46,020 nucleotides of DNA. It comes from Actinomycetota bacterium. Its GTDB lineage: Bacteria; Actinomycetota; Acidimicrobiia; IMCC26256; JACDBD01. How positions within the stretch are numbered: the first letter of the stretch is position 1; the number at the start of each line of letters is the position of its first letter. A program made the position numbers and the translations under genes. Positions 3,525 through 31,284 of the stretch are shown here, piece by piece. The stretch covers positions 1-46,020 of the forward strand of contig JBKOWN010000010.1 of the NCBI GenBank assembly GCA_046724435.1, read 5' to 3'. The notes beneath the pieces are model-generated. The model saw only the letters and a program-made list of their open reading frames with translations, ran no database searches and was not told the origin of the DNA.

Positions 3525-3704
3525 GACTGGTCCTCCTCATCGATCCCGCGGTGGCGCGGTGGCGAAGCCCGGTGCGGGACCGTCGGAGAGCCAAAGCCCT
3601 CGGGTCACTCTGGTGAGTGCTCGGACGCTACAGACGCTGCTGCTTGCCGGCGAGTGAATTCGACGTGCGCCAGAACCGGGCTGCATCCCCGGTACGGTCT
3701 GGCG

Positions 3705-4451: not shown

Positions 4452-4557
4452 GTCATCGCCCGTTCGCGTTCCCCGATCGCGAGCGGTCGAAGCACCGTTT
4501 CGGCTCGTCTTTGACGAGGTCTGCTAAGAAGGCCGCCGCGCGACGCTGTATCCCGTA

Positions 4558-8401: not shown

Positions 8402-8458
8402 ATCGCCGGCAGCGAGCGACAACACTTCGGTCGTGGCGTTCAGGGGCATGCTGGGGAC

Positions 8459-9478: not shown

Positions 9479-9496
9479 GTCGCGTCGGACGCGCAG

Positions 9497-9697
9497 CTAG
9501 CTCTTCTTCTTGTCCTTGGTGTCCGTAGTACCGGCTTCGTCGTTCCCTTCGGGGTGCGCTCCCTTTTTGAACTCTTTCGAAGCCTGGCCGAGTGAACGAG
9601 CCAGCTTGGGAAGCTGTGAGCTCCCGAAGAGCAGCACGATGATGCCGACGATGATGAGCAGGTCGGGTCCGGCGATTTCGCCGAAGATGGGCGTCAT
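9497..9697 (-). CDS. tatA: Twin-arginine translocase TatA/E subunit
   Basis: LLFGSSQLPKLARSLGQASKEFKKG; AAGGA RBS upstream of ATG 9697. Confidence 0.92.
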   Translation of the reverse strand: MTPIFGEIAGPDLLIIVGIIVLLFGSSQLPKLARSLGQASKEFKKGAHPEGNDEAGTTDTKDKKKS

Positions 9698-9777
9698 GAG
9701 CGGTGTCCTTTCAGACGGCCGCGTCCAAGCACCACCCACGCCGGGATACGCGGTGCCCTCAGCCACAAAACAGGGTA

Positions 9778-10923
9778 ATGCCGCCAAAGCCAAAGTCAGC
9801 CGCGGCCGGCGTCGACCTTCCTCTCGGCAGCGATCCCCGCCGCGCACCCGCCCGGTCGGTAGCGTTGGGGATCGCACACTCCCCGGTACGCCGCTGCTTG
9901 CTTGTCGCGCTCATCGTCGCCTGTGGGCTTCTGATCCCATCGCTCGGCGCGACCACGACGCCGGCGTCCGCGCAGGAAGCCGATCCGGTCACGCAGGCGA
10001 ACGACGCCGTCGCCGAAGCCCAGGCGCAAGTGGACCAGGTAGCCGGCGCGTATTTCGATGCGCTCCAGCGAGCGCAACAACTCGACGCGCAGATCTCCGA
10101 GCTGCAAGCTCGCATCGACGAGTCGAAGCAGCGGGTGACCGAGCTCAAGACAATCACGAAGGATCGTGCGGTCGCGGCGTACAAGCGCACCGGGAACACG
10201 CTCGGGAGCGTGTTCCTCGACAACCCGGGCGCCACCGAGACCGCGCACCGCATCAAGTTGCTCGACATCGTGAACGCTCACGACGACGACGCCGTCCGAG
10301 CGTTGCGCCATACGCAGGATGATCTGTCGCGTGAGCGTCAGGACCTCGAGGCGGCGCGGGAGGAACAGGCGAGCGCGCTCGTTCGCCTCAAGGAGCAGGA
10401 CCAGGAGGTCAATGCGAAGCTCGTCTCGGCCCAGGCGCAACGACAGGCCGCCCTCGAGCAGCAACTCCAAGCGCAACTCCAGGCCCAACTTCAGGCGCAA
10501 CAGCAGGCCGCCGCGGAGGCTGCGGCGGCGGCGGCCGCCGCGGCAGCGACGCCGCCCCCGACGCAACCGCCGCCAGCGCAACCGCCCCCGACGCAACCAC
10601 CCCCACGCCCGAACACCCCCGCGCCGGTCCCCGCCAGCTCCCCGCCGAACGGCGGCGTGAGCCCGCACCACAACGACCCGTACCTGACCTGCGTGCGCCG
10701 CCACGAGAGCAGCGACAACTACCAGGCCTACAACCCCGGCGGACCCGCCTACGGCGCCTACCAGTTCCTGCAGAGCACCTGGAACCTCGCCACCAACCAC
10801 GCCGGCCGCGGCGATCTCGTCGGGACCGACCCACGGCGCGCCTCCGCGTACGACCAGGACGAGATGGCCTGGGGCCTCTACCAGTGGGAGGGCAAGCGTC
10901 CCTGGTCCGTCGACCCCTGCTGA
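9778..10923 (+). CDS. Secreted coiled-coil protein with a C-terminal Rpf-like/transglycosylase domain
   Basis: Signal peptide, CwlO/PcsB-like coiled coil, Q/A/P-rich linker, CVRRHESSDNY...GAYQFLQSTW...QD..A...PW; start uncertain. Confidence 0.8.
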   Translation: MPPKPKSAAAGVDLPLGSDPRRAPARSVALGIAHSPVRRCLLVALIVACGLLIPSLGATTTPASAQEADPVTQANDAVAEAQAQVDQVAGAYFDALQRAQQLDAQISELQARIDESKQRVTELKTITKDRAVAAYKRTGNTLGSVFLDNPGATETAHRIKLLDIVNAHDDDAVRALRHTQDDLSRERQDLEAAREEQASALVRLKEQDQEVNAKLVSAQAQRQAALEQQLQAQLQAQLQAQQQAAAEAAAAAAAAAATPPPTQPPPAQPPPTQPPPRPNTPAPVPASSPPNGGVSPHHNDPYLTCVRRHESSDNYQAYNPGGPAYGAYQFLQSTWNLATNHAGRGDLVGTDPRRASAYDQDEMAWGLYQWEGKRPWSVDPC

Positions 10924-11050
10924 GGGCGCCGAGCAGGCGGGGCGAATCCGGCGCTCGCCAGGCCCGTCGGCACGGCGGCATGATCTGCGCAACAAGCCGC
11001 TCTTTGCAGTCGACATCGAGCGCGTGGACGCAAGGGGGAGGGCGATTCCA

Positions 11051-11431
11051 GTGGACGTGAGATCGATCGTCGATCGCGAGCCGGAGGTCGAGCACAACGG
11101 AACCGTCCCCGTGTGGTACCTCGTCCACCCCCGGGAGATGAAAGAGCTGACCGACGGCGGTTTCGTGGAGTTGATCAACGAGTTCGAGGTGGCGGCGGGT
11201 GGTGCCGTATTTCCCCACAGCCACCCGACGCACGAGTGGTATTTCGTGATGTCGGGACGTGGCGTCATGACCGTCGACGAGGAGGAACGCCCGGTCGGAC
11301 CCGGCGACCTCGTCTACATCCCGCCCGACCAGGTGCACAGCCTCCGGCCCGTCGGCGGCGGCGCGATCCACTGCTTCTGCTTTGCCGTCGGCGTCAAGGG
11401 CGCCGGCGTCGTGGATTACAAGACCCACTGA
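11051..11431 (+). CDS. Cupin domain protein
   Basis: PHSHPTHEWYFVMSGRG and GDLVYIPPDQVHS cupin motifs; GGGAGGG upstream of GTG 11051. Confidence 0.88.
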   Translation: MDVRSIVDREPEVEHNGTVPVWYLVHPREMKELTDGGFVELINEFEVAAGGAVFPHSHPTHEWYFVMSGRGVMTVDEEERPVGPGDLVYIPPDQVHSLRPVGGGAIHCFCFAVGVKGAGVVDYKTH

Positions 11432-12440: not shown

Positions 12441-13208
12441 TCACACGAATTCGGCGAACACCGGTCGGAACTGGTCGACGATCATCTCGACGCGCGTGCA
12501 GATCCTGTTCAGCATCGCCCAGACGCCGACGCCATCGCCGAGCGGTGTGTTCCGGAACGCGATGCGCACGACGAAACTCGGCTCCACATCCATCTCCGGA
12601 GCCGGAGGGTCGAAGGTGAATCGGGCGAGCTCGGCGCCCAGCTCGAGGCGACCTTCGGGAAAGGCGGCCTCGACGAGGCCGTCGGGGTTGTAGTTGGAGG
12701 TGCCGCCGAATCGGTACCCGGTTGTCTGCAGCGTCCGGCGGCTCGCGAGGTTCGACAGGCGCCCGAGGATCATGAGCGAGTCGTAGTCGGCACCGTACCT
12801 ACCGTGGTACGGCTGCAGTCGTTCCAACGGTGCGACCTGATCCGGCCCGATGCCCCGCAGCTTCCCCAGGTTGTCCCAGAACTCTCCCGGCGACGCGTAG
12901 ATCGGGAAGCGCGTGTCGCGAGCCAGGTCGGGCGGCAGCGTGCCGGAGTAGAGGATCGCGAGCTCGTGGGCGAGATGGTCGAGCGCCGACGCGGCGTTGT
13001 GGAGACAATCGCCGATGACCGGCCCCCACTCGGGGCGAGTCTTCCGGAAAGCCTTGACCCGGTATACGTGCTCTCGCCCGACGCGTTCGACGTCGTGCCG
13101 GAACCGGTAGGCGTCGTGCTCGAAGGCATCGAACTCTCTCTCGAGCATGTCGAGGTGATCGCGCGCGCGGTCGCAACTGAGCCCAACGCCGTCCAGCGGG
13201 TGAGGCAT
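12441..13208 (-). CDS. Hypothetical protein, helical HEPN-like family resemblance
   Basis: IGDCLHNAASALDHLA...FPI...LQPY...L.RLSN pattern; start taken at MPHPLDG. Confidence 0.55.
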   Translation of the reverse strand: MPHPLDGVGLSCDRARDHLDMLEREFDAFEHDAYRFRHDVERVGREHVYRVKAFRKTRPEWGPVIGDCLHNAASALDHLAHELAILYSGTLPPDLARDTRFPIYASPGEFWDNLGKLRGIGPDQVAPLERLQPYHGRYGADYDSLMILGRLSNLASRRTLQTTGYRFGGTSNYNPDGLVEAAFPEGRLELGAELARFTFDPPAPEMDVEPSFVVRIAFRNTPLGDGVGVWAMLNRICTRVEMIVDQFRPVFAEFV

Positions 13209-13329
13209 CGCAGGACCCTTGCTCTTCGGGCGGGCAGGCACGACCGGACGCGAAGCTAATAATTTCGACACGTCCGTGATGGAGGGACGGCTCCTGGCGA
13301 GGGGCGCAAACCGGAGGGATGTGCAGAAA

Positions 13330-13830
13330 ATGAGCGCGGACGCGCAAGCTTTCGGTGCAATCGTCGCCGACCTGGACACTCCGGTGTACGTCGTGACGAC
13401 CGCAGCGGGAGACGAGCGGGACGGCTGCCTGGTCGCTTTCGCGTCGCAGTGCAGCATGAAGCCGCCGCGATTCGGGGTCTGGCTGTCAAAGGAGAACCGC
13501 ACGTACCGCATCGCGCGGTCGGCGGAGACACTCGTGGTCCACATCCTCCGCCAGGGGGATCAGGACCTGGCGCGCCTCTTCGGTGCCCAGACCGGCGACG
13601 AAGTCGACAAGTTCACGGGCATCCAATGGCGTTCGGGGCCTGACGGCTGTCCCGTGCTCGCGCGCTGCGACTGGTTTGCCGGGTCGATCGTCGAACGCGT
13701 CGATACCGGCGATCACGTCGCGTTCGTGCTCGCCCCCCACGGCGGGCAGTGCGACCGGTCGGGCACCCATCAGCTCGGCATGCAGGAGATCGGCGACATT
13801 CGGGCGGGGCACCCGATCCCGGGGAATTGA
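13330..13830 (+). CDS. Flavin reductase family protein
   Basis: VYVVTT...GCLV.FASQCS..PP, FGAQTG..VDKF and GDHVAF motifs. Confidence 0.9.
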   Translation: MSADAQAFGAIVADLDTPVYVVTTAAGDERDGCLVAFASQCSMKPPRFGVWLSKENRTYRIARSAETLVVHILRQGDQDLARLFGAQTGDEVDKFTGIQWRSGPDGCPVLARCDWFAGSIVERVDTGDHVAFVLAPHGGQCDRSGTHQLGMQEIGDIRAGHPIPGN

Positions 13831-13844
13831 GCCTGTTCTCGGCC

Positions 13845-14636
13845 ATGCAGATTGACCTTCGCCTCGACCCGTTCGACACACCGTGGGTCCACGTACGGGA
13901 GGCGGTCCGCGCCGCGGCGGACGGCGGGTTCGAAGGAATCTGGACGCCGGATCATCTCGACGGGCGTGTCTTCGGCGCGTCGGAAGTGCTCGAGTGTTGG
14001 ACCACGTTGACCGCGATCGCCCTCTCGACGTCCGACGTCATGCTGGGTCCGCTGGTGTTGAACGTCGCGAACCGCGATCCGGGTGTGCTCGCTTCGATGG
14101 CCGCAACCCTCCAGGACATCTCCGGGGGACGTCTCCTGTTGGGGCTCGGTGCCGGCGGCGGGAAAGGCGCGCCGTTCCGCCGCGAGCAGGAAGCGATCGG
14201 ACGTGCCGTCCCACCCGACCCCGCACGCCGCGCGCGGGTCGAGTCGTGCGTCGCGGAGATGCGTCGCCTCTGGAGTACTCCGGGTTTCCTGCACCCGGAC
14301 CCGGCACCACCCGTCGTGATCGCCGCCTTTGGCCCGAAGATGGCCGAGCTGGCCGGGCGCGCCGGCGACGGCATCAATGCTCCCGCCCAGCATCCGCGCC
14401 TGCGCGAGCTCGTCGGCATAGCCCGCGCCGCCCGGGTGGACGCCGGCCGCGACCCCGCTCGCTTTCTCGTGACCGTCTACTCCGAGTTCCACGAGAGATG
14501 GTTCGACGTCCAGTCGCCGGCGCGCGCAGAGCTGGCCGCGTCGGGAGTCGATCGTCTGATCCTGTACCTCGGACCGCCGTTCGAGAACGCGCGCATCCGC
14601 CGAGCAGGTCGACTCCTGCACGAACCCGCCGGTTGA
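13845..14636 (+). CDS. LLM-class (luciferase-like) flavin/F420-dependent oxidoreductase
   Basis: IWTPDH, ECWTTLTAIA, LGPLVLNVANRDP, SGGRLLLGLGAG and GPKMAELAG motifs. Confidence 0.88.
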   Translation: MQIDLRLDPFDTPWVHVREAVRAAADGGFEGIWTPDHLDGRVFGASEVLECWTTLTAIALSTSDVMLGPLVLNVANRDPGVLASMAATLQDISGGRLLLGLGAGGGKGAPFRREQEAIGRAVPPDPARRARVESCVAEMRRLWSTPGFLHPDPAPPVVIAAFGPKMAELAGRAGDGINAPAQHPRLRELVGIARAARVDAGRDPARFLVTVYSEFHERWFDVQSPARAELAASGVDRLILYLGPPFENARIRRAGRLLHEPAG

Positions 14637-14675: not shown

Positions 14676-15602
14676 ATGGCGGACGAAGAGCATCACGACG
14701 TCGTCATCGTCGGTGGTGGCACGGCAGGGGTGAATTGCGCGCTGGAATGCTTCGACATCCAGCTCGACACGGTTCTCGTCGAGGCGAGCCCCACCTTGGG
14801 TGGCCAGCTGTCCGAGATTCTCCACTCCGTCCGCAACGTCGCCGCCGGGCCTTTCCCCGACGGTCGAGCGCTGCAACGGGCGCTGGTCGAGTCGGCCGAG
14901 ATCCTCGGCGACCGGGTGCGGCTGTCGCATCCCGTGACGAGGGCGGATGTAGAAGGCCGTGCGGTCGAAGTCGACGGCCTGCGAATGTCCGGCCGGGCCT
15001 TGGTCGTCGCCACCGGTACGAGCAAGCAGTACCTCGAGGCCGCGCCCGACGGCGCGTTCGGCGGTGATGTCACCTACCAGCTCGAGCCACAGTTGCCCAG
15101 CTTTGCCGGGCGCGACGTCGCGGTCATCGGCGGTGGTGACAGCGCGACCCTGGATGCACTCGAGCTCGCCCGCCGGGGTTCATCCGTCAAGTTGATCCAC
15201 CGGTCGCCGGATCTCACCGCCCGGCAGGACATCCTTCGCCAGCTGCAGGACCAGCCTCGGATCGAGGACCTGCCCGGCTGGGAGCTCGAAGCAGCGCACG
15301 GCGCGGAGCGACTCGAGAGCATCGTCCTCGTGCGACGGTCGACCGGCGACAGGAAGGAAGTCGCAGTCCAGCGTTTGGTCGTCAAGATCGCGCGCACGCC
15401 CAACACGCAGCTGCTCGAAGGGCAGCTGGAGCTCGACCGGTCGGGAGCGGTGGTCGTCGATCGCGAGTTGCGCGCTTCCCGGGCCGGGGTCTTCGCCGCG
15501 GGCGACGTCGTCGCCGGTGCCTACGCCCGGGTTGCGGCCGCGCTGGGACAAGGTTCGTTGGCGGCGCGGTCGGTCTTGCATTCTCTCGAAGGACGATCGT
15601 GA
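14676..15602 (+). CDS. Thioredoxin-reductase-like NAD(P)/FAD oxidoreductase lacking CxxC
   Basis: GGGTAG, VATG, GGGDSA and GVFAAGDV motifs; the usual CATC position reads VTYQLEPQ. Confidence 0.82.
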   Translation: MADEEHHDVVIVGGGTAGVNCALECFDIQLDTVLVEASPTLGGQLSEILHSVRNVAAGPFPDGRALQRALVESAEILGDRVRLSHPVTRADVEGRAVEVDGLRMSGRALVVATGTSKQYLEAAPDGAFGGDVTYQLEPQLPSFAGRDVAVIGGGDSATLDALELARRGSSVKLIHRSPDLTARQDILRQLQDQPRIEDLPGWELEAAHGAERLESIVLVRRSTGDRKEVAVQRLVVKIARTPNTQLLEGQLELDRSGAVVVDRELRASRAGVFAAGDVVAGAYARVAAALGQGSLAARSVLHSLEGRS

Positions 15603-16153
15603 CACCCGCTGACTCGTCGGCTGACGATGAGCTCCCGACGAGCGACGAGGTAGTCGCCGAGTTTCGACGCGCTCTTGATGATCCGGAGCGGCGATCGACG
15701 CGCAATCTCGTCGGGTACCTGATCGATCTGCTTCGCAGCAACCTCGCTCAATGGAACTGGGAGGACGAAGCACGCGACTCCGGGGCCGACGACGCGGCCG
15801 TCGCCGAGGCGAAGCGAGCGATCGACCAGCTCAACGCGGCAAGGCACCACCTGGTCGAAGAGATCGACGCGGCCATCGACCGAACCGGCGGGCAATCCGC
15901 GTCGGCGCCGCTTGCGACGGAGAGTCCCGGGATGGCGTTCGATCGACTCTCCGTGCTCGTGATCCGGATCCGCCACGCCGAGCGGGTGGCCGGCGAGGGC
16001 GCGTCGGACGCCGATCTCTACGCCTCGCGCCTGGCGGTCCTGTACCGCCAGCTGGCGGACCTCCAGGAGGCCATCGACGGCCTGATCGCGGACGTTCGCG
16101 AAGGTACGAGGCGCTTCGTTCCGTACCAGAGCTTGAAGATGTACGGGCAGTAG
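15599..16153 (+). CDS. DUF4254-like helical protein
   Basis: N..QW..ED.AR, KRAIDQLN..R..LVEEID, TESPG.AFDRLS and Y..LKMY motifs; GTGA overlap with the upstream gene. Confidence 0.8.
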   Translation: MTPADSSADDELPTSDEVVAEFRRALDDPERRSTRNLVGYLIDLLRSNLAQWNWEDEARDSGADDAAVAEAKRAIDQLNAARHHLVEEIDAAIDRTGGQSASAPLATESPGMAFDRLSVLVIRIRHAERVAGEGASDADLYASRLAVLYRQLADLQEAIDGLIADVREGTRRFVPYQSLKMYGQ

Positions 16154-16162
16154 CCGAGCGGC

Positions 16163-17215
16163 TCACGCGGCGAGCGTCGACAGGGCGACGGTGTGGAGCC
16201 GGTACCCGCCGCGATTGAAGCCGTAGAGGATGCGGTCGCCCACGACGGCGGCGTGCGCAATGCCGAGCGAATCAGCAGCGAGGCCGTCCGTGCGGGCCCG
16301 ATGGTCGCCACTCGCGGTGCGGTACACATCCACCTCGCCCGCCCGGCCGATCCCGCAGACCCGTCCGGCCGCGAGGACCACCGCCGTGCCCCCGTTTCCC
16401 CATGCGAGGTCGCGCGCGAAGCGGCCCCGGACCACCGTTCTCCCGTCGGCAAGGTCCAGCGCCGCGAACCCGCCTCCGTGAAGCTTCTCCCAGTCGTAAT
16501 CGTCGATCCCGTGTGCACCGATCTCGGGGCCGGCAACCCAGAGAAGCTCTGCGTCCTGAACGAAAGTGGCCGGTTCGAAGTCGACGCCGACCTCCCAGCG
16601 CAGCCGGCCGACGTCGCCGCGATCGATCGGGACGAGACCGGCGCGGCCGTTGCCGCCGACGGCGAGGGAGCGCCGCTCGCCGGCGTGGGCGGTGGCGAGG
16701 GCCGTGACCATGCCCCATGCCTCCAACTCGACGTGGCCGTCCAGGCGCGCGCCGTCGGCGGACGCGGTGATCGGCTCCGACACCAGCACGCCTCCCGCTT
16801 GTTGCTCGTGCGGTAGCGACCCGATGAGCCGATCACCGAGTGCCACAACGCGCTCCATGTCCGGGGCGAAGTCAGCGGTCCACACCGGCTCGATCCGGCG
16901 GGGCGCGCCGCTGGTGTGAATCTCGGAACGCCGGAACGCCCGCAGGAGCCCGAGATGATTGAGCACCACGACGACGCCGGCCGCCGGGACGTCGAGGATC
17001 GCGTGAACGTCAAGATCGTATTGCGACGGCTCGTCGTCATCGGGAAACACGGTTTGGTCGAACACTGCACACGGCTCGAAGGCGCGCGAGGCGAACACGA
17101 CGTTTCGACCGAGGTTGTTCCATGCACAGACATGACCGAGGTCGACGACCCTCCCGATCCCGGCGGGTTGCGAATTCCGAACGCGGCTCCGGGGGTGGGA
17201 GTCCAACTCGGTCAT
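16163..17215 (-). CDS. Hypothetical cytoplasmic beta-rich (propeller-like) protein
   Basis: ATGA overlap with the GT9 stop; no signal peptide; beta-strand-rich repeats. Confidence 0.65.
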   Translation of the reverse strand: MTELDSHPRSRVRNSQPAGIGRVVDLGHVCAWNNLGRNVVFASRAFEPCAVFDQTVFPDDDEPSQYDLDVHAILDVPAAGVVVVLNHLGLLRAFRRSEIHTSGAPRRIEPVWTADFAPDMERVVALGDRLIGSLPHEQQAGGVLVSEPITASADGARLDGHVELEAWGMVTALATAHAGERRSLAVGGNGRAGLVPIDRGDVGRLRWEVGVDFEPATFVQDAELLWVAGPEIGAHGIDDYDWEKLHGGGFAALDLADGRTVVRGRFARDLAWGNGGTAVVLAAGRVCGIGRAGEVDVYRTASGDHRARTDGLAADSLGIAHAAVVGDRILYGFNRGGYRLHTVALSTLAA

Positions 17216-18111
17216 AGCAGTTCCCGGAGCGCGTCCATGACGTCCGCCGGACGGATCCCTTCGAGACACCGCGCTCCTACCGGGCAACTCCGTGGCTGCC
17301 ACGCCGAGGCGGGCGAGCTCACCCGAGCGTTATACGCGTATGTCCTCTCCATCGACCGGCACGATTCGTCGCAGCGATCGCCCACGACCGCCCGACAGTG
17401 GGGCCACGGCCGGAAGTAGACAGCTCGGTCCCGATACATCCCGACGGTCGGCGTTCCTTGCTGGACGGCGATGTGGGTCAGACCGGTGTCGATGCCAACG
17501 ACCGCACGACACGACGTGAGCACGTCGACCGCGTCGCCGGGTGTCGGAGCCCGGACGGTCTCGATCCCGGTGAGGGACATCTTGGCAACGGGCTCGTCAC
17601 GGGTGACCATGCGGACGTCGTTGCCCCCGTCTCGGATCTCGCGGTCCACCTCGGCCCAGCGTTCGGGGGCCCAGCGTTTCGTGCCGTCGCTCTCGGTCAC
17701 GAGGATGACGGAGTCGCGAAGGTCGGCGCGTGCTCGCCGCACGTCCAGCGCGACCGGCCGTGAGAAATCGGCGGGGATCCCGAAGTCTGCGCAAATGCGC
17801 CCCAGGATCTCGTTGATCTCGAGGGGGCCGACGGCTCGGTCGAACTCGGGCGATCCCCACCAGTAGTCCCGTTGCAGCGGGTGATCACGCAGATCGAAGA
17901 AGCGACCGCCCGCTCGGGCGGGATCGAAGGTGTCCTCGTGCACGCAGCCGCCGAGCCCGGCGATGCGATCCGCCAACACGGCCTGACCGGCTGACCGCGC
18001 CACCAGCCACGTCTCCCCGGGGTTCTCCGTGATCAACGCCTGGATCGCGGGCAGGGACACGATCAGATCGCCCAGGCCGAAGGAGAACGGGGCGATGTAG
18101 GTGCGCCGCAT
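17212..18111 (-). CDS. Glycosyltransferase family 9 (heptosyltransferase-like)
   Basis: GLGDLIVSLPAIQAL, KRW..ERW, VVGIDTGLTHIA...TPTVG and a C-terminal Cys cluster ending CLEGI.P.DV. Confidence 0.85.
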   Translation of the reverse strand: MRRTYIAPFSFGLGDLIVSLPAIQALITENPGETWLVARSAGQAVLADRIAGLGGCVHEDTFDPARAGGRFFDLRDHPLQRDYWWGSPEFDRAVGPLEINEILGRICADFGIPADFSRPVALDVRRARADLRDSVILVTESDGTKRWAPERWAEVDREIRDGGNDVRMVTRDEPVAKMSLTGIETVRAPTPGDAVDVLTSCRAVVGIDTGLTHIAVQQGTPTVGMYRDRAVYFRPWPHCRAVVGDRCDESCRSMERTYAYNARVSSPASAWQPRSCPVGARCLEGIRPADVMDALRELL

Positions 18112-18131
18112 CAGGACGAGCCTCGAGGTCC

Positions 18132-18800
18132 TCAGCGACTCGCATAGGTCGTGACGTCGTCGATCGAGGCCGCCGCGAAGGCGCGCCGGCGCTCCGCGCA
18201 CTTGTTGCATTGCCCGCAATGGCCTCCCGCGGCCGGGTCGATGCACGAGAACGTGTGCTCGAGTTGGAGCTGCCGACCACGTTCCAGGACGTGGGCCTTC
18301 TCGAGCTCGGAGAACGGCGTCGCGATCTCGAGGCGATGATTCACGGCGGTACGAACGAGCGATTCGACGTCGCCGAAGAACTCGCGGCTGCTGTCCGCGA
18401 AGGGATTCCCCTTCAGCGTGCCGAGAGCGACGGTCGGATAGCCGTTGAGCGCACACCAGATCGATGACTTCGACAGGAGGAGCAGGTTCCGTCCCGGTAG
18501 GTAGACGGCTTCGTCGGGCGTGTGCGCGTCGGGTACGTCGTCGGCGGAAAGGCTCCAGTGAGCGCCGTACGTATCGGCGACCGGGAGGTCGAGCGTCACG
18601 AGAGACCGAAGCCGGGAGCCCGGCAGCGTGTCGAGGAAACGCCGCAGGTGGCTCTCCTCGGTCTCTTCCCACGCGAGACCGAACCGGACGTAGAGCGGCT
18701 GCACGATACGCCCTTCCTCCAGGTACTCCGCCGTCAACACGGCGCTGTCGAGACCGCCGCTGGCCAAGACCGCGACGCCGTCGCGGTCGGGCAAGGTCAT
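18132..18800 (-). CDS. queC: 7-cyano-7-deazaguanine synthase QueC-family protein
   Basis: SGGLDS PP-loop, YLPGRN and TFSC..P...[11 protein letters not shown] zinc motif. Confidence 0.88.
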
Positions 18801-19156
18801 GCATCACCTCGATACACGCACCCCGAGGTACAGGTCTCGTGGACGACGACCTGGGACAGCTCGGGAAGGGAAGGCGCGACGCGATCCCAGATCCACCGGG
18901 CCAGGAGCTCGCTCGTCGGGTTCTCGAGCCCGGGAACTTCGTTCAGGTAGTAGTGGTCCAGGCGATCGAGGACCGGTCGCATCGCACACGCGACGTCCCC
19001 GAAATCGCGAACCCAACCGGTCTCCTCCCCGAGCGGCCCCTCGATGTGCACTTGCACCCGGAACGAGTGTCCGTGGAGACGGGCACACTTGTGACCCGGA
19101 GGTACGTTCGGCAGACGGTGCGCGGCCTCGAACGTGAACTCCTTGAAGATCTCCAT
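18797..19156 (-). CDS. queD: 6-carboxytetrahydropterin synthase
   Basis: [31 protein letters not shown] and ENPTSE; ATGA overlap with queC. Confidence 0.95.
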
Positions 19157-19297: not shown

Positions 19298-20245
19298 TCA
19301 GCTCGCGGTGGACGGTGCGGACTGAGGGGTGTCGGCCGGCGCCGGCTCGCGTGGGCCGCTCCGGGCGCGGAACAGGGCGACGACGATCATTCCGAGCCCG
19401 TACACGGTGGCGGCGATCAGCACGATGACATTGACGACCGGGATCAGGCCCGCCACCGAGAGGATCCCCCAACCGACGAGGTACGAGAGCAGCCGATTGG
19501 TGGGCGGCCGGAGTATGAGCCGGCCGAGGAAGTACGCGGACGTGACGTACCCAAGCGTGTAAAGGAAGCCGAGCGCCAGCAACACGATCGCGCCGAGCGG
19601 CAAGCCGATCACCGTCGCGAGCAGGATCAACCCGACGACCGGCAAGCCCACGGCCGCGGCGATACCGAGCCCGATCGACGCGCCCACGGCCGTGCGTCCG
19701 GCATCGGCGAACGCATCCGCGGCGCGGGGCGCGATCAAGAGCAACAGCAGCCCGAGCACGAGTGTCGACACGATCACGGCAAGCCAAAGGAGGATCGCCG
19801 CGACGACGCCGACCTGACCCAGCGCGAAGCGCCTGCTGACCGACTTCACGTCGCCGTCAACGGTCGCTCCGGGAGAGATGCGCGCCTTCTCGCGCGAGGT
19901 GACGTCCCCGCCGACGCGGGCACCGCCATCCACGATGACCCGCCCGTTCACCGCGACGACGTCGTCTTTGACTGATCCCCTGACGATCACATCGCCGTTC
20001 AGTGCGAAGACCGAACCGCGCACGCTGCCGTTGATGCGAGCATCACCGTTGAGGATGACGACGCCGCCGACGCTCTCCTGAGGCGCGACATCCACCCGCC
20101 CCGTGATGACGACCTGGGTGTCGTCGTCGCGGTTCCTGGCCTGCGTCCCGCCTGGTGCGGCTACGGCAGGCGCGGCCACCGTCAGGGATGCCGCGGCGAC
20201 GAGCGCGCCTACCACGACACCCACACACACGCGCCGGTGGGTCAC
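19298..20245 (-). CDS. Bactofilin-like (polymer-forming beta-helix) domain membrane protein
   Basis: Signal peptide, repeated G.V.I.G.V.GDV units, then about 5 TM helices including IGLPLG. Confidence 0.72.
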   Translation of the reverse strand: MTHRRVCVGVVVGALVAAASLTVAAPAVAAPGGTQARNRDDDTQVVITGRVDVAPQESVGGVVILNGDARINGSVRGSVFALNGDVIVRGSVKDDVVAVNGRVIVDGGARVGGDVTSREKARISPGATVDGDVKSVSRRFALGQVGVVAAILLWLAVIVSTLVLGLLLLLIAPRAADAFADAGRTAVGASIGLGIAAAVGLPVVGLILLATVIGLPLGAIVLLALGFLYTLGYVTSAYFLGRLILRPPTNRLLSYLVGWGILSVAGLIPVVNVIVLIAATVYGLGMIVVALFRARSGPREPAPADTPQSAPSTAS

Positions 20246-20791: not shown

Positions 20792-21763
20792 TCAGAAGCT
20801 CTCGAGATAGGCCGCCGCCCCGCGCACGACGGCATGACGCGGGTCGCGCGCCATACGGACCGGGAAGCCGAGCTCGAAGGCGAGACGGCGATCGAGGCCG
20901 AGCAACAGCGCCCCGCCGCCCGTCAGCACCAGGCCCTGATGGCTCGCATCGGCGACGAGCTCAGGCGGTGTGGCCTCGAGGGTGTCGCGCACGGTGTCGC
21001 AGATGCCGTGGACCGGTTCCTCGATCGCCTCGCGCAGCTCGACGGTGGAGACGGTGATCGTCCTCGGCGACCCTGTCGCCTGATCGACGCCACGGATGTC
21101 GACGTAGCCCTCTTCTCGGAGCGGCCACGCGCTCGCGTACCGCGACTTCACGTACTCCGCGGTCCCTTGGCCGATTCCGAGCCCGTACTCCTTCCGGCAG
21201 AAGGCCATGATCGCCTGGTCGAAGTGGTTGCCCGCGGTGCGGACGGACGCGCTCGCGACGACCCCGCCAAGGGACAGCACGGCAACTTCCGTGGTGCCGC
21301 CGCCGACGTCGACGACGAGGTTGCCGACCGCGCTCTCGATCGGCATGCCGGTCCCGAGCGCCGCCGCGACCGGCTCCTCGATGAGGTGCACCGGCTTGCG
21401 GGCACCGGCAAACTCCGCCGCCTCCTGCACTGCGTGACGTCCGAGCTCGGTCGCGCGGGAAGGGACGCAGACCACGACTCGAGGCCGCCACCAGCGCCGC
21501 TCACTCACGCGGTGCAGAAAGACCCGCAGCATCTTCTCGCACGCCGTGAGGTTGGCGACCGTGCCGTCCTCCAACGGGCAGAGCACTTCCAGATGGCGCG
21601 GTGTGCGCCCCTGCATGTGCTTCGCCGCGGCGCCGACCGCGACGATCTCGCCGTCGCGGCGATTGATCGCGATGGCAGACGGCTCGTCGACGACGACACC
21701 TCGCCCTCGCACGTAGGTGACCGTGTTGGCGGTGCCGAGGTCGACGGCGACGCCCAAGCCCAT
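20792..21763 (-). CDS. mreB: Rod shape-determining actin MreB
   Basis: DLGTANT, EPS, IEEPVAAALG, VVDVGGGTTEVA and LTGGGALL; AGGAGG RBS. Confidence 0.92.
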   Translation of the reverse strand: MGLGVAVDLGTANTVTYVRGRGVVVDEPSAIAINRRDGEIVAVGAAAKHMQGRTPRHLEVLCPLEDGTVANLTACEKMLRVFLHRVSERRWWRPRVVVCVPSRATELGRHAVQEAAEFAGARKPVHLIEEPVAAALGTGMPIESAVGNLVVDVGGGTTEVAVLSLGGVVASASVRTAGNHFDQAIMAFCRKEYGLGIGQGTAEYVKSRYASAWPLREEGYVDIRGVDQATGSPRTITVSTVELREAIEEPVHGICDTVRDTLEATPPELVADASHQGLVLTGGGALLLGLDRRLAFELGFPVRMARDPRHAVVRGAAAYLESF

Positions 21764-22384: not shown

Positions 22385-23764
22385 GTGACCGGCAGACTGC
22401 TCTTCGCATGCTGCGTCGTCATAGCCGTTCTCCTCGCGGCATGCTCGTCCGGGAGTAACACGAAGTCGAAGTCCAGCAAGGGGACGACCGCGACAACCGC
22501 GCCGCAGACAGGCGGTTCGCAACCCGGCGGAGCGTGGCCCACCTACCACCGCGACGCGTTGCGCACTGGCGTTGAACCGAGCGGTCCGACTCCAGGCTCG
22601 CTTCGCCGAGTGTGGGAGTCGCCAGAGGTCGACGGGAAGGTGTACGCCGAACCGGTCTTCGTCGGCAACCAGGTGCTCGTCGCAACCGAGCACGACACCG
22701 TGTACGCGCTCGACGCCGCGACGGGCCAGGTCCAGTGGCAGAAGAATCTCGGTGAACCGGTTCCCCAATCGCAGCTCCCGTGCGGGAACATCGACCCGAC
22801 CGGCATCACGAGCACGCCCGTCGTCGACACCGGGCGCGGTCTGGTGTACGTCGTCACGTTCACGATGCCGGCCCGCCACGAACTCGTCGCGCTCGATCTC
22901 GCTTCGGGCGTGCAGCGTTTCCGTCGGCCTGTCGACGCGCAAGGCGCAGACCCGAAGGTCGAGCAACAACGCAGTGCGCTCGCGATGGCCGGGGACCAGG
23001 TGCTCATCGCGTACGGCGGACTGTTCGGCGACTGCGGTACCTACCACGGTTACGTGATCGCGGCGCGTGCCGACGGAAGCGGCGACCTCACGACCTTCCA
23101 GGTCCCGACGGCGCGCTCGGGAGCCGTCTGGGCGCCGCCCGGTCCGGTGGTGGACAACAACACCGTGCTGATCGCAAGCGGGAACTCGGTCGGGCCGGGT
23201 GGCAACCAGGACCTGTCGAACTCGGTGCTGCGCCTGTCCCTGCCCGGGCTCCAGCTCAAGGACTCGTGGACGCCACGCAATCGCGACGAGCTGAGCCAAA
23301 CCGATCAGGACCTCGGTTCCACGTCACCGGTGCCGGTCGGAAACGGGCTCGTCTTCGTGGTGGGCAAGGAAGGCGTGGGCTACCTCATGCGCGCCGATGC
23401 GCTGGGGGGCGTCGGCGGCGAGGTCTTCTCCGGACCGGTGTGCCGCGGGTTCGGAGGTACTGCGTCGGCGCCGCCTTTGCTGTTCGTGCCGTGTCGCAAC
23501 GAGCTCGACGCGCTCCGCATCGAAGGATCGAGCTTCTCCGTGGCGTGGCGCGTGCCGGGCGTCGACGGGTCGCCCATCGTCACCGGCGACACCGTGTGGG
23601 CGATCGACCTCAGCGGAGGCCAGCTGCACGCGTACCGTTCGTCCGACGGGCAGGAGCTCGCCAGCATGCCGGTGGGGGACGTCGCCAACTTCGGCACACC
23701 GGCGGCGGGGAACGGCCTCGTCGTCGTCGCCGGCGGCGGGCATGTCGTCGCCTTCGGGAACTAA
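22385..23764 (+). CDS. PQQ-like beta-propeller lipoprotein
   Basis: Lipobox LAAC; WPTYH.D..RTG, YALDAATG...W, GITSTPVVD and D.DLGS. Confidence 0.8.
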   Translation: MTGRLLFACCVVIAVLLAACSSGSNTKSKSSKGTTATTAPQTGGSQPGGAWPTYHRDALRTGVEPSGPTPGSLRRVWESPEVDGKVYAEPVFVGNQVLVATEHDTVYALDAATGQVQWQKNLGEPVPQSQLPCGNIDPTGITSTPVVDTGRGLVYVVTFTMPARHELVALDLASGVQRFRRPVDAQGADPKVEQQRSALAMAGDQVLIAYGGLFGDCGTYHGYVIAARADGSGDLTTFQVPTARSGAVWAPPGPVVDNNTVLIASGNSVGPGGNQDLSNSVLRLSLPGLQLKDSWTPRNRDELSQTDQDLGSTSPVPVGNGLVFVVGKEGVGYLMRADALGGVGGEVFSGPVCRGFGGTASAPPLLFVPCRNELDALRIEGSSFSVAWRVPGVDGSPIVTGDTVWAIDLSGGQLHAYRSSDGQELASMPVGDVANFGTPAAGNGLVVVAGGGHVVAFGN

Positions 23765-26361: not shown

Positions 26362-26704
26362 TCGTTGTTTCCTTAGCAGTTGTCACCCCGCCGACCCGGT
26401 GTCAGCAGCCGGGAGGCGGGACACGTGTTCAATGTCCATTCGGTGGCTCGAAGGGAGCGAAGCGGACAGGTACCTCACTGGGGCGAACCGAATCCCCGGG
26501 ACACTGCCCGCCAGGCGGGAGCGACGAGAAGAGGGTCGGACCGGTGTTGTCGCTCGCGCCGCAACGTGGCGACCGAAGCTGACCAATTCAGACTACTCGA
26601 CCCACGCCGCCTGGCAGATCATGGCGGGGTGGGGTCGGCGCTAGCGTCAGCGCGAGCATTTGCCTGCCGGAATCAGCTTGCCAGAAAGGGGTAGGGACAC
26701 TCGG

Positions 26705-29280: not shown

Positions 29281-29283
29281 CGC

Positions 29284-30941: not shown

Positions 30942-30947
30942 CCGGCC

Positions 30948-31244: not shown

Positions 31245-31284
31245 AGAGCGAGATTACGCCCGAACGCCCAGGCGGAGCGAGGGC

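What the first reader, a model, noticed from the sequence alone, without database searches (positions are those of the whole stretch)
14676..19156. Candidate new 7-deazapurine/glycosylation system: queD-queC-GT9-beta-rich protein converging on TrxR-like + DUF4254
Seen: queD and queC overlap (ATGA), GT9 starts 20 nt after queC, and GT9 overlaps an unknown 350-aa gene (ATGA). This run ends 9 nt from a convergent, coupled pair (CxxC-less TrxR-like and DUF4254-like). No queE, queF, folE, tgt or dpdA is in the window. Established: QueD, QueE and QueC make preQ0 for queuosine, DNA modification and pyrrolopyrimidine natural products. Glycosylated preQ0 derivatives (huimycin, dapiramicin) exist, and QueC-like proteins have been repurposed in defence systems (QatC, type IV CBASS). 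Inference: this is not a standard queuosine operon. It may be a six-gene module that makes or attaches a glycosylated deazapurine or pterin, or one in which the QueC paralog acts as a ligase on another substrate.
Basis: partly seen in the sequence, partly recalled or inferred. Interest (0 to 1): 0.8.

Follow-up and report, generated by a model that had tools for sequence, protein, structure and literature searches.

The report
QueD plus QueC-paralog glycosyltransferase gene cluster
A six-gene cluster kept together in about 80 soil actinobacterial genomes pairs a normal pterin-forming enzyme (QueD) with a divergent QueC paralog, a glycosyltransferase and three poorly understood proteins, in genomes that lack the rest of the queuosine pathway, so it probably makes an unknown pterin-derived product.

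Summary
The six genes (queD, queC-like, GT9, a 350-aa WD40-like beta-propeller, DUF4254, a CxxC-less TrxR-like flavoprotein) form a real module. All six occur in the same order in 80 of 103 distinct related loci; 9 more are cut by contig ends and 3 lack only DUF4254. Flanks vary, and rough dN/dS is 0.07-0.41.

It is not a queuosine or deazapurine operon. QueD is canonical. No QueE was found in six carrier genomes, including a complete chromosome and a 99%-complete MAG. No TGT was found in the four of these that were searched for it. The QueC-like protein scores far below the QueC cut-off, has lost several canonical substrate motifs, and forms its own clade. In 8 of 8 Planctomycetota genomes the same paralog coexists with canonical QueC and TGT, and it often sits next to a QueD-type gene.

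DUF4254 is linked to GT9 across phyla, by fusions and by neighbourhood.

Best reading (about 0.4): the QueC paralog ATP-activates the carboxylate of 6-carboxytetrahydropterin, and the product is then glycosylated and redox-tailored. No product or partner has been shown. I found no description of this cluster in the searches run.

The parts
18797..19156 (-). queD, canonical 6-carboxy-5,6,7,8-tetrahydropterin (CPH4) synthase, PTPS-I type
   Evidence: TIGR03367 scores 108.6 bits against a cut-off of 89.25. It scores 197.5 bits to PDB 2oba and 183.5 bits to 4ntm, whose depositors name it 6-carboxy-5,6,7,8-tetrahydropterin synthase, aligned over residues 3-118. It carries the C-ARL-HGH sequence, which matches the PTPS-I motif CxxxHGH given in PMC5041015. 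It is the only PTPS hit in 5 of 6 carrier genomes searched.
18132..18800 (-). QueC-family ATP pyrophosphatase paralog ('QueC-like'), overlapping queD by ATGA
   Evidence: PF06508 scores 94 bits. TIGR00364 scores 65.7 against a cut-off of 150.3. SGGLDS and C(x)8CxxCxxC are kept, but YxQxHxxE, YPDC and the Tyr after the first Zn cysteine are lost (against PMC13329287 section 6). It forms a separate clade with 99/99 support. Canonical QueCs of the same class score 201-263 bits.
17212..18111 (-). GT9-family glycosyltransferase, 299 aa, starting 20 nt after queC-like
   Evidence: PF01075 scores 44.1 bits against a cut-off of 22, over residues 136-252. The profile of 25 orthologues hits WaaF 1psw at E 1.2e-6, WaaC at 6e-6 and TibC at 7e-3. 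It lies far below the LPS heptosyltransferase equivalog cut-offs (39 against 185). Four invariant cysteines (C247, C251, C276, C282) sit near the C-terminus.
16163..17215 (-). 350-aa cytoplasmic seven-bladed WD40-like beta-propeller of no known family, overlapping GT9 by ATGA
   Evidence: No Pfam, NCBIfam or PADLOC hit. The AF2 model has pLDDT 88.8 and pTM 0.89. Foldseek and VIA give a flat list of WD40/BamB-type propellers: Z 23-25.5, rmsd about 3, 275-290 residues aligned, 7-13% identity. There are 54 invariant columns among 27 orthologues, many of them polar. In a class sample it was found only in one order of Acidimicrobiia.
15599..16153 (+). DUF4254 protein, a five-helix bundle, converging on the propeller gene (9 nt between stops) and overlapping the TrxR-like gene by 4 nt
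   Evidence: PF14063 scores 114.8 bits. The AF2 model has pLDDT 91.4. There is no informative structural match: best Foldseek E 0.096 and best VIA Z 7.5. In other lineages it is fused to GT9, GT9-APH, NTP_transf_2, TPR or Pyr_redox_2.
14676..15602 (+). Thioredoxin-reductase-like FAD/NAD(P) flavoprotein without redox cysteines
   Evidence: PF07992 scores 106.6 bits. TIGR01292 scores 147 against a cut-off of 343. At the CxxC site of TrxR it reads TYQLEPQ. No CxxC occurs in any of the 40 orthologue segments recovered; my pattern found the segment in 40 of 122 loci.
13749..14636 (+). Luciferase-like monooxygenase, an occasional accessory gene (true start probably near 13842)
   Evidence: PF00296 scores 119.8 bits. 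A tblastn hit lies within the locus in 20 of 80 complete clusters. It is next to the TrxR-like gene in close relatives, but directly upstream of queD on the same strand in L017, L018, L021, L022, L033 and L039.
13219..13830 (+). Flavin reductase-like protein, an occasional accessory gene
   Evidence: PF01613 scores 98.1 bits. It is present in 10 of 80 complete clusters, always beside the luciferase-like gene.

Best explanation
This is a self-contained, vertically maintained six-gene module. It uses the first committed enzyme of deazapurine synthesis but not the rest of that pathway.

Proposed steps:
1. QueD turns dihydroneopterin triphosphate into 6-carboxytetrahydropterin (CPH4). The substrate comes from FolE, which is encoded elsewhere in the genome. 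This step follows from the established activity of this enzyme family.
2. No QueE exists to contract the ring, so the QueC paralog most likely acts on CPH4 itself or on an oxidised form of it. It would adenylate the C6 carboxylate with ATP and pass it to ammonia or another amine, giving a pterin 6-carboxamide, a nitrile or an amide conjugate. This step is inferred.
3. The GT9 enzyme, working with DUF4254, then adds a sugar. This step is inferred.
4. The CxxC-less TrxR-like flavoprotein sets the redox state of the pterin ring or tailors it. Where present, the luciferase-like monooxygenase and flavin reductase would contribute. This step is inferred.
5. The WD40-like propeller is either a scaffold that holds these enzymes together or an additional enzyme. 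This is open.

The end product would be a new glycosylated pterin-type metabolite or cofactor of one order of soil Acidimicrobiia.
For: The module is real.
- All six genes occur in one order in 80 of 103 distinct loci. Nine more are cut by contig ends and 3 lack only DUF4254.
- Beyond the six genes, only the luciferase-like gene (12-14 of 43 loci) and the flavin reductase (9 of 43) recur in the flanks.
- Rough dN/dS for all six genes is 0.07-0.41.

It is independent of queuosine and deazapurine synthesis.
- No TGT in G000, G201 (a 4.7-Mb chromosome record), G203 or G204.
- No QueE with three models in G000. TIGR04508 and TIGR03365 found none in G201, G203 or G204 beyond generic hits of about 20 bits. 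TIGR04508 found none in G251 (99% complete) or G351.
- As a positive control, G205 gave QueE at 342 bits next to a canonical QueC at 259 bits.
- No QueF in G000.

QueD is canonical. FolE is present in the genome.

QueC-like is a distinct paralog.
- It lies below the equivalog cut-off, has altered pocket motifs and forms its own clade.
- It keeps Arg, an aromatic residue and Asp at the positions that contact the 2-amino-4-oxopyrimidine face of the ligand in Cap9 (R86, Y115, D117; bioRxiv 2025.04.06.647259 section 7; alignment). A pterin shares that face.

The same paralog (52-60% identity) occurs in Planctomycetota.
- It is adjacent to a QueD-type gene in 6 of 11 loci and 2 kb away in a seventh.
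- In 8 of 8 genomes searched it coexists with a canonical QueC and TGT.
- Canonical QueC sits beside QueE-like hits in two of those genomes.

The GT9-DUF4254 partnership recurs.
- Fusions: P0232 (GT9-DUF4254) and P0263 (GT9-APH-DUF4254).
- Neighbourhood in Acidobacteriaceae and in an actinomycete.
- A published table row reports the link for Flavobacteria (PMC9425974).
- Pyr_redox_2-DUF4254 fusions also exist: P0248 and P0254.
Against: - No product, substrate or activity has been measured. Every chemical step after QueD is inference.
- In Planctomycetota the QueC-like/QueD pair stands without GT9, DUF4254, the propeller or the TrxR-like gene. DUF4254-GT9 in turn occurs without queC/queD in Acidobacteriaceae and elsewhere. 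The six genes could therefore be two functional units sharing an operon.
- In Planctomycetota QueE exists, so CDG rather than CPH4 could be the paralog's substrate there.
- G202 has a TGT, and G205 has the full canonical set alongside the cluster. Absence of the Q pathway is therefore not universal among carriers.
- G000 is only 85.7% complete.
- WD40-like propellers are more often protein-binding scaffolds than enzymes. GT9 includes protein glycosyltransferases such as TibC (E 7e-3). Both points lean towards a macromolecular target.
- Two singleton proteins fuse a CCA-adding/poly(A)-polymerase-type enzyme to this QueC-like clade (P0272, P0274), which hints at RNA.
- No GmhA or HldE domain II hit passed its cut-off in five carriers, so the sugar donor is unknown.
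Confidence: 0.4

Rival explanations
1. Two unrelated units share an operon. One is a QueD/QueC-like pair that makes a small pterin or base derivative. The other is a GT9/DUF4254 unit (with the propeller and flavoprotein) that glycosylates some unrelated envelope or protein acceptor.
For: Each unit occurs without the other. QueC-like plus a QueD-type gene is found alone in 7 of 11 Planctomycetota loci. DUF4254 with GT9, HldE-like, TPR and CofD-family genes is found in Acidobacteriaceae. DUF4254-NTP_transf_2, PRTase and GT9 sit together in an actinomycete. Three Acidimicrobiia-type loci lack DUF4254.
Against: In 80 loci the two units stay fused, with overlapping or nearly abutting reading frames (20 nt between queC-like and GT9, and an ATGA overlap), while everything around them changes. 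In the class sample, the propeller used as marker of the cluster (7 of 301 genomes) and DUF4254 in the phylum sample (3 of 201 genomes) are both rare. Within this class the DUF4254 and GT9 genes seen here therefore lie inside the cluster, and no stand-alone GT9/DUF4254 unit turned up; a direct search for such a unit was not made.
Confidence: 0.17
2. This is a macromolecule-modifying system modelled on Cap9 and QatC. The QueC paralog would ligate the CPH4-derived carboxylate to an amine of a protein (the propeller, DUF4254 or another) or of a glycan, and GT9 would also act on that macromolecule.
For: The best solved-structure match of QueC-like is Cap9 (9nto_B, E 2.4e-10), ahead of QueC 2pg3 at 1e-7. 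Cap9 uses the QueC mechanism to join CDG to a protein N-terminus (bioRxiv 2025.04.06.647259, abstract and section 7). The propeller fold is the typical protein-binding scaffold. It has a lower-confidence N-terminal tail carrying the strongly conserved motif NSQPxGIGR. GT9 includes protein heptosyltransferases.
Against: The extreme N-terminus of the propeller varies in length and sequence among 83 distinct inferred N-termini, with 15 different residues at position 2. The start codons behind this were picked by a heuristic. This argues against an N-terminal alpha-amine target of the Cap9 kind. The tree puts the paralog no closer to the two short defence-type QueC-likes than to canonical QueC. 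No CD-NTase, Cap10/TGT or QatA/B/D-type gene is present.
Confidence: 0.15
3. It is a 7-deazapurine pathway after all. An unrecognised enzyme of the cluster would replace QueE, and the QueC paralog would act on CDG to give a glycosylated preQ0-type compound, as the reader first proposed.
For: QueD and a QueC-family enzyme are the two flanking steps of preQ0 synthesis. QueC-like keeps the ATP and Zn motifs and the Arg, aromatic and Asp ligand contacts. From recall, not from any call: glycosylated preQ0 natural products exist.
Against: The ring contraction is radical-SAM chemistry, and none of the six proteins is a radical-SAM enzyme. No QueE was found with the models used in six carrier genomes. 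Residues needed by canonical QueC are changed, including the Tyr whose alanine mutant is inactive in E. coli (PMC13329287 section 6).
Confidence: 0.07
4. It is an anti-phage defence system built around a QueC-family protein.
For: QueC-family proteins are signature parts of QatABCD and type IV CBASS (abstracts in the listing). Distribution is patchy: 7 of 301 Acidimicrobiia genomes sampled. The PADLOC QueC model scores 76 bits.
Against: No nuclease, TIR, ATPase or other effector-type gene is present, and the other five proteins have no PADLOC hit. Flanks are housekeeping genes (MreB, ferritin-like, bactofilin-domain). The cluster is kept across most sampled members of a genus (3 of 4 and 2 of 3). 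The presence of QueD points to biosynthesis.
Confidence: 0.05

Closest known systems
preQ0 pathway (FolE - QueD - QueE - QueC) of queuosine/archaeosine and deazapurine DNA modification
   Same: It uses the same first enzyme, a canonical QueD (183.5 bits to PDB 4ntm, named 6-carboxy-5,6,7,8-tetrahydropterin synthase). It also uses a QueC-fold ATP pyrophosphatase with the SGGxDS and Zn-cysteine motifs.
   Different: QueE, QueF and TGT are absent from the window. QueE was not found in six carrier genomes, TGT was not found in the four of these searched for it, and QueF was searched only in G000. The QueC copy lies outside the canonical clade and has lost substrate motifs. It is joined to GT9, DUF4254, a propeller and a flavoprotein instead.
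Cap9 (type IV CBASS) and QatC (QatABCD): QueC-family enzymes repurposed for nucleobase-protein conjugation
   Same: It is a QueC-fold paralog working outside tRNA modification. Cap9 is the best solved-structure match. The Arg, aromatic and Asp ligand contacts are conserved.
   Different: It has canonical length (222 aa) rather than 191 aa for Cap9 or about 400 aa for QatC. It scores 24.8 bits on the QatC model, whose cut-off is 280. None of the partner genes of those systems is present. It is encoded beside QueD, which points to a biosynthetic setting. CDG is unavailable in these genomes.
Pterin glycoside biosynthesis (cyanobacterial biopterin glucoside, tepidopterin and similar), recalled and not retrieved by any search
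   Same: A PTPS-family enzyme and a glycosyltransferase would cooperate to give a glycosylated pterin.
   Different: As far as I recall, those pathways use PTPS-II-type chemistry and reductases, and glycosylate a side-chain hydroxyl with other GT families. Here the pterin would carry a C6 carboxyl-derived group made by a QueC-family enzyme, and the GT belongs to family 9.
GT9 heptosyltransferases (WaaC, WaaF) and protein heptosyltransferase TibC
   Same: It shows the Pfam GT9 signature in the nucleotide-sugar-binding half. The orthologue profile hits WaaF, WaaC and TibC.
   Different: The host phylum is generally regarded as lacking LPS (my own knowledge, not tested here). The protein is far below the equivalog cut-offs. 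No GmhA or HldE domain II hit passed its cut-off in five carriers. It has an extra C-terminal four-cysteine segment.
DUF4254-GT9 pairs of Flavobacteria, Acidobacteriaceae and others
   Same: The same two families sit side by side or are fused.
   Different: Elsewhere the pair sits with envelope or sugar-nucleotide genes (HldE-like, CofD/YvcK-family, TPR), or with PRTase, NUDIX and a nucleotidyltransferase. Only here is it joined to queD and queC-like.
Thioredoxin-reductase-type flavoproteins without CxxC (for example TrxR-type ferredoxin-NADP reductases)
   Same: It has the two-dinucleotide-binding-domain TrxR fold. PDB hits include ferredoxin-NADP reductases such as 5xhu and 3ab1.
   Different: It is only about 25-30% identical to any solved member (my estimate from the bit scores; identity was not computed). 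It is translationally coupled to DUF4254, and fused to it in P0248 and P0254.

Membership tests
QueD / PTPS-I (CPH4 synthase) | CxxxHGH motif (PTPS-I) rather than CxxxxxHGH (PTPS-II) or ExxHGH (PTPS-III) | tested here: met
   The sequence reads [11 protein letters not shown]. Motif definitions are from passages of PMC5041015. The residue after Cys is Ala, so it is not a I/III hybrid.
QueD / PTPS-I (CPH4 synthase) | Score above the NCBIfam equivalog cut-off, and close similarity to biochemically defined QueD | tested here: met
   TIGR03367 scores 108.6 against 89.25. It scores 183.5 bits to 4ntm over residues 3-118.
[quoted passage not shown] | Score above the equivalog cut-off (TIGR00364, 150.3 bits) | tested here: not met
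   It scores 65.7 bits. On Pfam PF06508 it scores 94 bits, against 201-263 bits for canonical QueCs of the same class.
[quoted passage not shown] | SGGxDS ATP loop and C(x)8CxxCxxC zinc site | tested here: met
   SGGLDS and [16 protein letters not shown] are present, and invariant in 14 orthologues.
[quoted passage not shown] | Substrate-side motifs YxQxHxxE, VPxRN and YPDC, and the Tyr following the first zinc cysteine (PMC13329287, section 6) | tested here: not met
   Y-VRFGLAWE has lost the Gln and His. LPGRN is kept. FADS replaces YPDC. SC-I-DP replaces SC-Y-xx.
[quoted passage not shown] | Pathway context: QueE (source of CDG) and TGT or DpdA in the genome | tested here: not met
   No QueE was found in G000, G201, G203, G204, G251 or G351. 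No TGT was found in G000, G201, G203 or G204. G000 is 85.7% complete, G251 is 99% complete, and G201 is a chromosome-level record.
[quoted passage not shown] | Placement inside the canonical clade in a tree | tested here: not met
   In a 23-row tree, the 14 cluster copies form a clade (99/99) on a stem of 3.24. The canonical bacterial and archaeal QueCs group apart. Branches are long, and no true Cap9, QatC or ToyM sequence was available to include.
QatC / Cap9 (defence QueC-family) | Match to the QatC equivalog model, and presence of partner genes (QatA/B/D, or CD-NTase plus Cap10) | tested here: not met
   NF041925 scores 24.8 against 280. None of those families is among the window ORFs. There is no TGT-family gene in the genome.
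Thioredoxin reductase | Redox-active CxxC in the NADPH domain, and the equivalog score | tested here: not met
   It reads TYQLEPQ at the CxxC site. TIGR01292 scores 147 against 343. CxxC is absent in all 40 orthologue segments recovered.
Glycosyltransferase family 9 | Pfam PF01075 above its gathering score | tested here: met
   It scores 44.1 against 22, over residues 136-252. The orthologue profile hits WaaF and WaaC.
LPS heptosyltransferase I/II | Equivalog score, and an ADP-heptose supply (GmhA, HldE) | tested here: not met
   TIGR02193 scores 39.2 against 185. TIGR02195 scores 26.8 against 134.6. No GmhA or HldE domain II hit passed its cut-off in 5 carriers, though sub-threshold SIS-domain hits occur in 3 of them.
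DUF4254 (PF14063) | Pfam match above the gathering score | tested here: met
   It scores 114.8 against 27.
Known anti-phage defence systems (PADLOC) | Matches of several cluster proteins to the models of one system | tested here: not met
   Only the QueC-like protein matches (QueC model 76 bits, QatC model 21.9 bits). The other five have no hit, or a single E 0.008 hit.

The most novel reading that the evidence does not exclude
The QueC paralog is a pterin-carboxylate ligase. It would adenylate CPH4 and attach the pterin through an amide bond to an amine on a protein or glycan. That would be a pterin counterpart of Cap9 deazaguanylation. The WD40-like propeller would serve as target or docking platform, and the GT9/DUF4254 pair would extend the adduct. 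This would be the first protein- or glycan-bound pterin modification made by QueC-family chemistry, and it would give a first function to the widespread DUF4254-GT9 pair.
Probability: 0.13. Interest if true: 0.85.

Novelty: new variant of a known kind. Interest (0 to 1): 0.62.

Why it matters
QueC-family enzymes were recently shown to have been re-used for protein modification in phage defence. This cluster points to a third use: a QueC paralog that works directly with QueD and without QueE, which implies chemistry on a pterin carboxylate rather than on a deazapurine. The same paralog sits beside a QueD-type gene in Planctomycetota that also keep the canonical pathway, so the QueD/QueC-like pair appears to be a separate and undescribed biochemical unit spanning at least two phyla.

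The cluster also ties DUF4254 to a defined enzymatic context that can be tested by heterologous expression. DUF4254 has 1,608 50%-identity clusters at E <= 0.001 and was present in all 50 Flavobacteria genomes analysed in a published survey (PMC9425974). It has no known function and recurs next to, or fused with, GT9 enzymes.

If the product is a new pterin cofactor or pigment of abundant soil Acidimicrobiia, it would add to a small known set of pterin derivatives.

Tried and rejected

**Complex prediction.** The GT9 + DUF4254 job was never accepted. The queue was full or the machine gave no answer. No result exists.

**Structure and sequence searches with no informative match.**
- DUF4254: Foldseek against PDB gave no match at E <= 0.001 (best 0.096; some HEPN-toxin rows at TM about 0.3). 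VIA wide gave a best Z of 7.5 to transporter helices, which is generic for helical bundles. The Atlas gave no usable hit once PF14063 was excluded.
- Propeller: only generic WD40/BamB/PQQ-type matches. The orthologue profile against PDB sequences gave nothing below E 0.05.
- GT9: the single sequence had no PDB sequence hit.

**RNA elements and signals.** Rfam found no RNA family in the window, at gathering score or at E <= 1 across the cluster. The promoter and terminator scan gave nothing above shuffles.

**Expression.** No RNA holder was listed for the stretch.

**Alignment too diverse.** The search for related loci with the diverse DUF4254 alignment A4 failed for lack of a conserved stretch. 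I replaced it with the 6-sequence alignment A5.

**Fusion search.** The search for homologous proteins for DUF4254 returned only close relatives. The 'longer' search with QueC-like gave six long proteins, each a single sequence on one contig (CCA-adding-type enzyme + QueC-like twice, QueC-like + class-III aminotransferase, QueC-like + ABC ATPase). I treat these as leads only, because they may be gene-calling run-ons.

**Fused GT9 versus window GT9.** BLASTP gave only core-motif similarity, E 0.003-0.008.

**Literature.**
- 'DUF4254' occurs in 2 papers, neither on function.
- A search on 6-carboxytetrahydropterin / QueD / glycosyltransferase / pterin gave 8 papers. Judged from their titles and the abstract starts shown in the listing, none was relevant; none was opened.
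- A search on QueC / paralog / QueD / Planctomycetes gave nothing on this clade.
- The 2026 QueC-family survey has no occurrence of Actinobacteria, Actinomycetota, Planctomycet-, glycosyltransferase, PF01075 or pterin in its main text. I did not open its supplementary tables, which may list small clusters that include this clade.

**Readings rejected.**
- A queuosine salvage or remnant operon: rejected because the six genes are under purifying selection and conserved as a block.
- PTPS-III folate bypass: rejected because the motif is CxxxHGH without Glu.

Full report
**Observation.** The window is contig C34 of a 2.74-Mb, 205-contig MAG that is 85.7% complete. It has about 69% G+C, and its relatives are Acidimicrobiia.

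- queD 19156-18797 overlaps queC-like 18800-18132 by ATGA.
- GT9 (18111-17212) starts 20 nt after the queC-like stop.
- GT9 overlaps the 350-aa gene (17215-16163) by ATGA.
- That gene ends 9 nt from the stop of DUF4254 (15599-16153, + strand).
- DUF4254 overlaps the TrxR-like gene (14676-15602) by 4 nt.

The 350-aa protein has no family. Nothing resembling queE, queF, folE, tgt or dpdA is among the 47 window ORFs scanned.

**The module is real and has sharp edges.**
- The 350-aa protein retrieved 42 loci, all from Actinomycetota/Acidimicrobiia MAGs.
  - tblastn with the window's proteins found all six genes in the same order and orientation in 39 of them.
  - The other 3 are cut by contig ends.
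- An alignment of QueC-like orthologues found at least 520 relatives, of which the best 80 were kept.
- Pooling both sets gives 122 loci and 103 distinct ones:
  - 80 carry all six genes.
  - 9 are truncated by contig ends.
  - 3 lack only DUF4254 (L163, L202, L209).
  - 11 are Planctomycetota (discussed below).
- An all-against-all comparison of ORFs in 43 loci showed that nothing else within about 7 kb is widely shared.
  - A luciferase-like monooxygenase recurs in 12-14 loci and a flavin reductase in 9.
  - The monooxygenase lies beside the TrxR-like gene in close relatives but directly upstream of queD in others. That is the behaviour of a loosely attached accessory gene.
- Pairwise NG86 dN/dS for the six genes against four relatives is 0.07-0.41. 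dS is near saturation, so these values are rough.
- In a sample of 301 Acidimicrobiia genomes the propeller gene is in 7, counting the window's own. These fall in 3 of 135 genera and 3 families, all in one order.

**It is not a queuosine or deazapurine operon.**
- The window's genome has one QueC-family gene (this one) and FolE on another contig. It has no TGT, no QueF and no QueE.
- Because the MAG is incomplete, I repeated the searches in relatives that carry the cluster.
  - G201 (a 4.7-Mb chromosome record), G203 and G204 have no TGT, no QueE and only the cluster's QueC-like.
  - G251 (same genus, 99% complete) and G351 have no TIGR04508-type QueE.
- The searches can find these genes in this class. 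G205, which also has the cluster, has a canonical QueC (259 bits) next to a QueE (342 bits), plus two TGTs.
- G202 has a TGT, so carriers are not uniformly Q-less.
- Among 81 sampled Acidimicrobiia, QueC-family scores are bimodal: 201-263 bits in six genomes and 89-94 bits for the cluster copies. Seventy-three genomes have none.

**The individual proteins.**

*QueD* is canonical.
- It scores above the equivalog cut-off.
- It scores 183.5 bits to PDB 4ntm, deposited as 6-carboxy-5,6,7,8-tetrahydropterin synthase.
- It has the PTPS-I motif CxxxHGH, as defined in PMC5041015 (passages).

*QueC-like* keeps the catalytic core but not the canonical pocket.
- The ATP loop and the four zinc cysteines are kept.
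- It has lost the Gln and His of YxQxHxxE, reads FADS for YPDC, and has Ile where canonical QueC has the Tyr whose alanine mutant is inactive in E. coli (PMC13329287 section 6; alignment).
- It also lacks two insertions present in canonical QueC.
- Its best solved relative is Cap9 (E 2.4e-10), ahead of QueC.
- It keeps Arg, an aromatic residue and Asp at the Cap9 positions that hold the 2-amino-4-oxopyrimidine face of the ligand (bioRxiv 2025.04.06.647259 section 7).
- In a 23-row tree the 14 cluster copies form a clade (99/99) on a long stem. They sit apart from canonical bacterial and archaeal QueCs, and from two short plasmid-borne QueC-likes found among TIR, PfkB and HhH-GPD genes.
- True Cap9, QatC and ToyM sequences could not be included.

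*The TrxR-like protein* has no CxxC, and none occurs in the 40 orthologue segments I could extract.

*GT9* is a short, divergent member with four invariant C-terminal cysteines. No GmhA or HldE domain II hit passed its cut-off in five carriers, so ADP-heptose is not an evident donor.

*The 350-aa protein* models confidently (pLDDT 88.8) as a seven-bladed WD40-like propeller, with only generic matches. It has many invariant polar residues. The stretch before its conserved NSQPxGIGR motif varies in length.

*DUF4254* models (pLDDT 91.4) as a five-helix bundle with no informative match.

**Two wider links.**

*1. DUF4254 goes with GT9 well beyond this cluster.*
- A profile search found 1,608 representative clusters. 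Among them are fusions of GT9-DUF4254, GT9-APH-DUF4254, DUF4254-NTP_transf_2, DUF4254-TPR and Pyr_redox_2-DUF4254.
- In Acidobacteriaceae the gene sits with TPR and CofD-family genes. It lies opposite a GT9 gene in 3 of the 8 loci annotated, one of them with an HldE-like gene.
- In one large actinomycete genome it is fused to a nucleotidyltransferase in an operon with NUDIX, PRTase, GT9, SDR and a histidine phosphatase.
- In Actinomycetota as a whole the family is rare: 3 of 201 genomes.

*2. The QueC-like clade also occurs in Planctomycetota, at 52-60% identity.*
- It is adjacent to a QueD-type gene in 6 of 11 loci, and 2 kb away in a seventh.
- None of the other four genes accompanies it there.
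- All 8 Planctomycetota genomes searched hold this paralog (84-98 bits) as well as a canonical QueC (210-254 bits) and TGT.
- They hold two PTPS genes each. QueE-like hits lie beside the canonical QueC in two of them.
- The paralog therefore has its own job, and its steady companion is QueD, not QueE.

**Interpretation.**
- What is shown:
  - a conserved six-gene block;
  - a canonical QueD;
  - a distinct QueC paralog;
  - no QueE in six carriers, and no TGT in the four of these searched for it.
- What is inferred: the paralog adenylates the carboxylate of CPH4 and transfers it to ammonia or another amine. GT9 with DUF4254 then glycosylates, and the flavoprotein tailors the pterin.
- I put about 0.4 on this pterin-product reading.
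- The main rivals are:
  - two functionally separate units that share an operon (0.17);
  - a Cap9-like conjugation to a macromolecule (0.15);
  - a deazapurine route with an unknown QueE substitute (0.07);
  - a defence system (0.05).
- The remainder is unassigned.

**Novelty.** Each protein fold is known, and the repurposing of QueC-family enzymes is an active topic. I found no description of this cluster, of a QueD/QueC-paralog pair acting without QueE, or of any function for DUF4254 (searches; term search in the 2026 QueC-family survey). The supplementary tables of that survey were not opened. I rate it a new variant of a known kind. It is moderately surprising to a specialist and can be tested directly by heterologous expression.

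Noticed in passing
L210, L212, L220, L221, L223, L226 (adjacent); L222 (2 kb apart); L214, L217, L225, L227 (QueC-like only): Planctomycetota (Gemmataceae and relatives) carry the same QueC-like paralog, often directly followed by a QueD-type PTPS gene. This is in addition to a canonical QueC, QueE-like genes and TGT elsewhere in the genome. It looks like a two-gene unit of unknown function spanning two phyla.
   Followed up: partly
P0232, P0263, P0145/P0147/P0163/P0178, P0180, P0248/P0254: DUF4254 occurs fused to GT9, to GT9 plus an APH-type kinase, to an NTP_transf_2 nucleotidyltransferase (proteins of about 600 aa), to TPR repeats, and to the C-terminal part of a Pyr_redox_2 flavoprotein.
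   Followed up: partly
L079, L082, L096, L119, L065, L115, L057, L074: In Acidobacteriaceae (at least 528 relatives) and a few other lineages, DUF4254 is followed by a TPR protein and a CofD/YvcK-family protein. It lies opposite either a GT9 gene (once with an HldE-like PfkB + cytidylyltransferase gene) or an ATP-grasp gene.
   Followed up: partly
L053 (G054:C1:7021000-7040900), about 4100-11400: A large actinomycete genome has an operon of NUDIX, a 213-aa unknown, DUF4254-nucleotidyltransferase (600 aa), a phosphoribosyltransferase, GT9, an SDR and a histidine phosphatase. A Pyr_redox_2 gene lies 3 kb away. This looks like nucleoside or nucleotide-sugar chemistry.
   Followed up: no
P0272 (697 aa), P0274 (676 aa); Two single-contig proteins join a CCA-adding/poly(A)-polymerase-type enzyme (PolyA_pol head, RNA-binding and HD domains) to a C-terminal QueC-like domain of this clade (52-54% identity). 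This could be a real fusion or a run-on gene call, and it hints at an RNA link.
   Followed up: no
L144 (Rhizobium etli pB, 3294-5056) and L145 (Agrobacterium pTi, 661-6484): Short (about 190 aa) QueC-like genes on conjugative plasmids sit among TIR-domain, PfkB/nucleoside deoxyribosyltransferase and HhH-GPD glycosylase genes. This is a defence-island-like setting.
   Followed up: no
window 17212-17460 (C-terminal 80 residues of GT9): Four cysteines (C247, C251, C276, C282) are invariant in 25 orthologues, which suggests a metal-binding segment. From recall only: the protein heptosyltransferase TibC has a cysteine-bound iron site.
   Followed up: no
window 19298-20245 (-), 38343-39854 (-), 20792-21763 (-): Two proteins with bactofilin-domain hits are present; the first is below Pfam's cut-off (26.7 against 27.9 bits). 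An MreB homologue (387 bits) lies next to a ferritin-like gene. This block is shared only with the nearest relative (L011/L172).
   Followed up: no
window 22385-23764 (+): A second, unrelated beta-propeller is present: a PQQ_2/BamB-type protein of 459 aa whose hydrophobic N-terminus looks like a lipoprotein signal.
   Followed up: no
window 12441-13544 (-), 4558-6927 (+), 8459-9478 (+): These are long ORFs with high third-position G+C and no Pfam match.
   Followed up: no
L006, L008, L011, L040-L044, L162, L172; G205:C1:1777067-1777671: In several long-contig MAGs the cluster genes give split or shortened tblastn matches, and one copy has an in-frame TGA. I could not tell assembly errors from real decay.
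   Followed up: no
window 26660-33456: A run of tailoring-type genes lies 8-14 kb from the cluster: an NAD-dependent epimerase/dehydratase, a class-III aminotransferase, a cytochrome P450 and a sulfotransferase. It is not conserved with the cluster in other loci.
   Followed up: no
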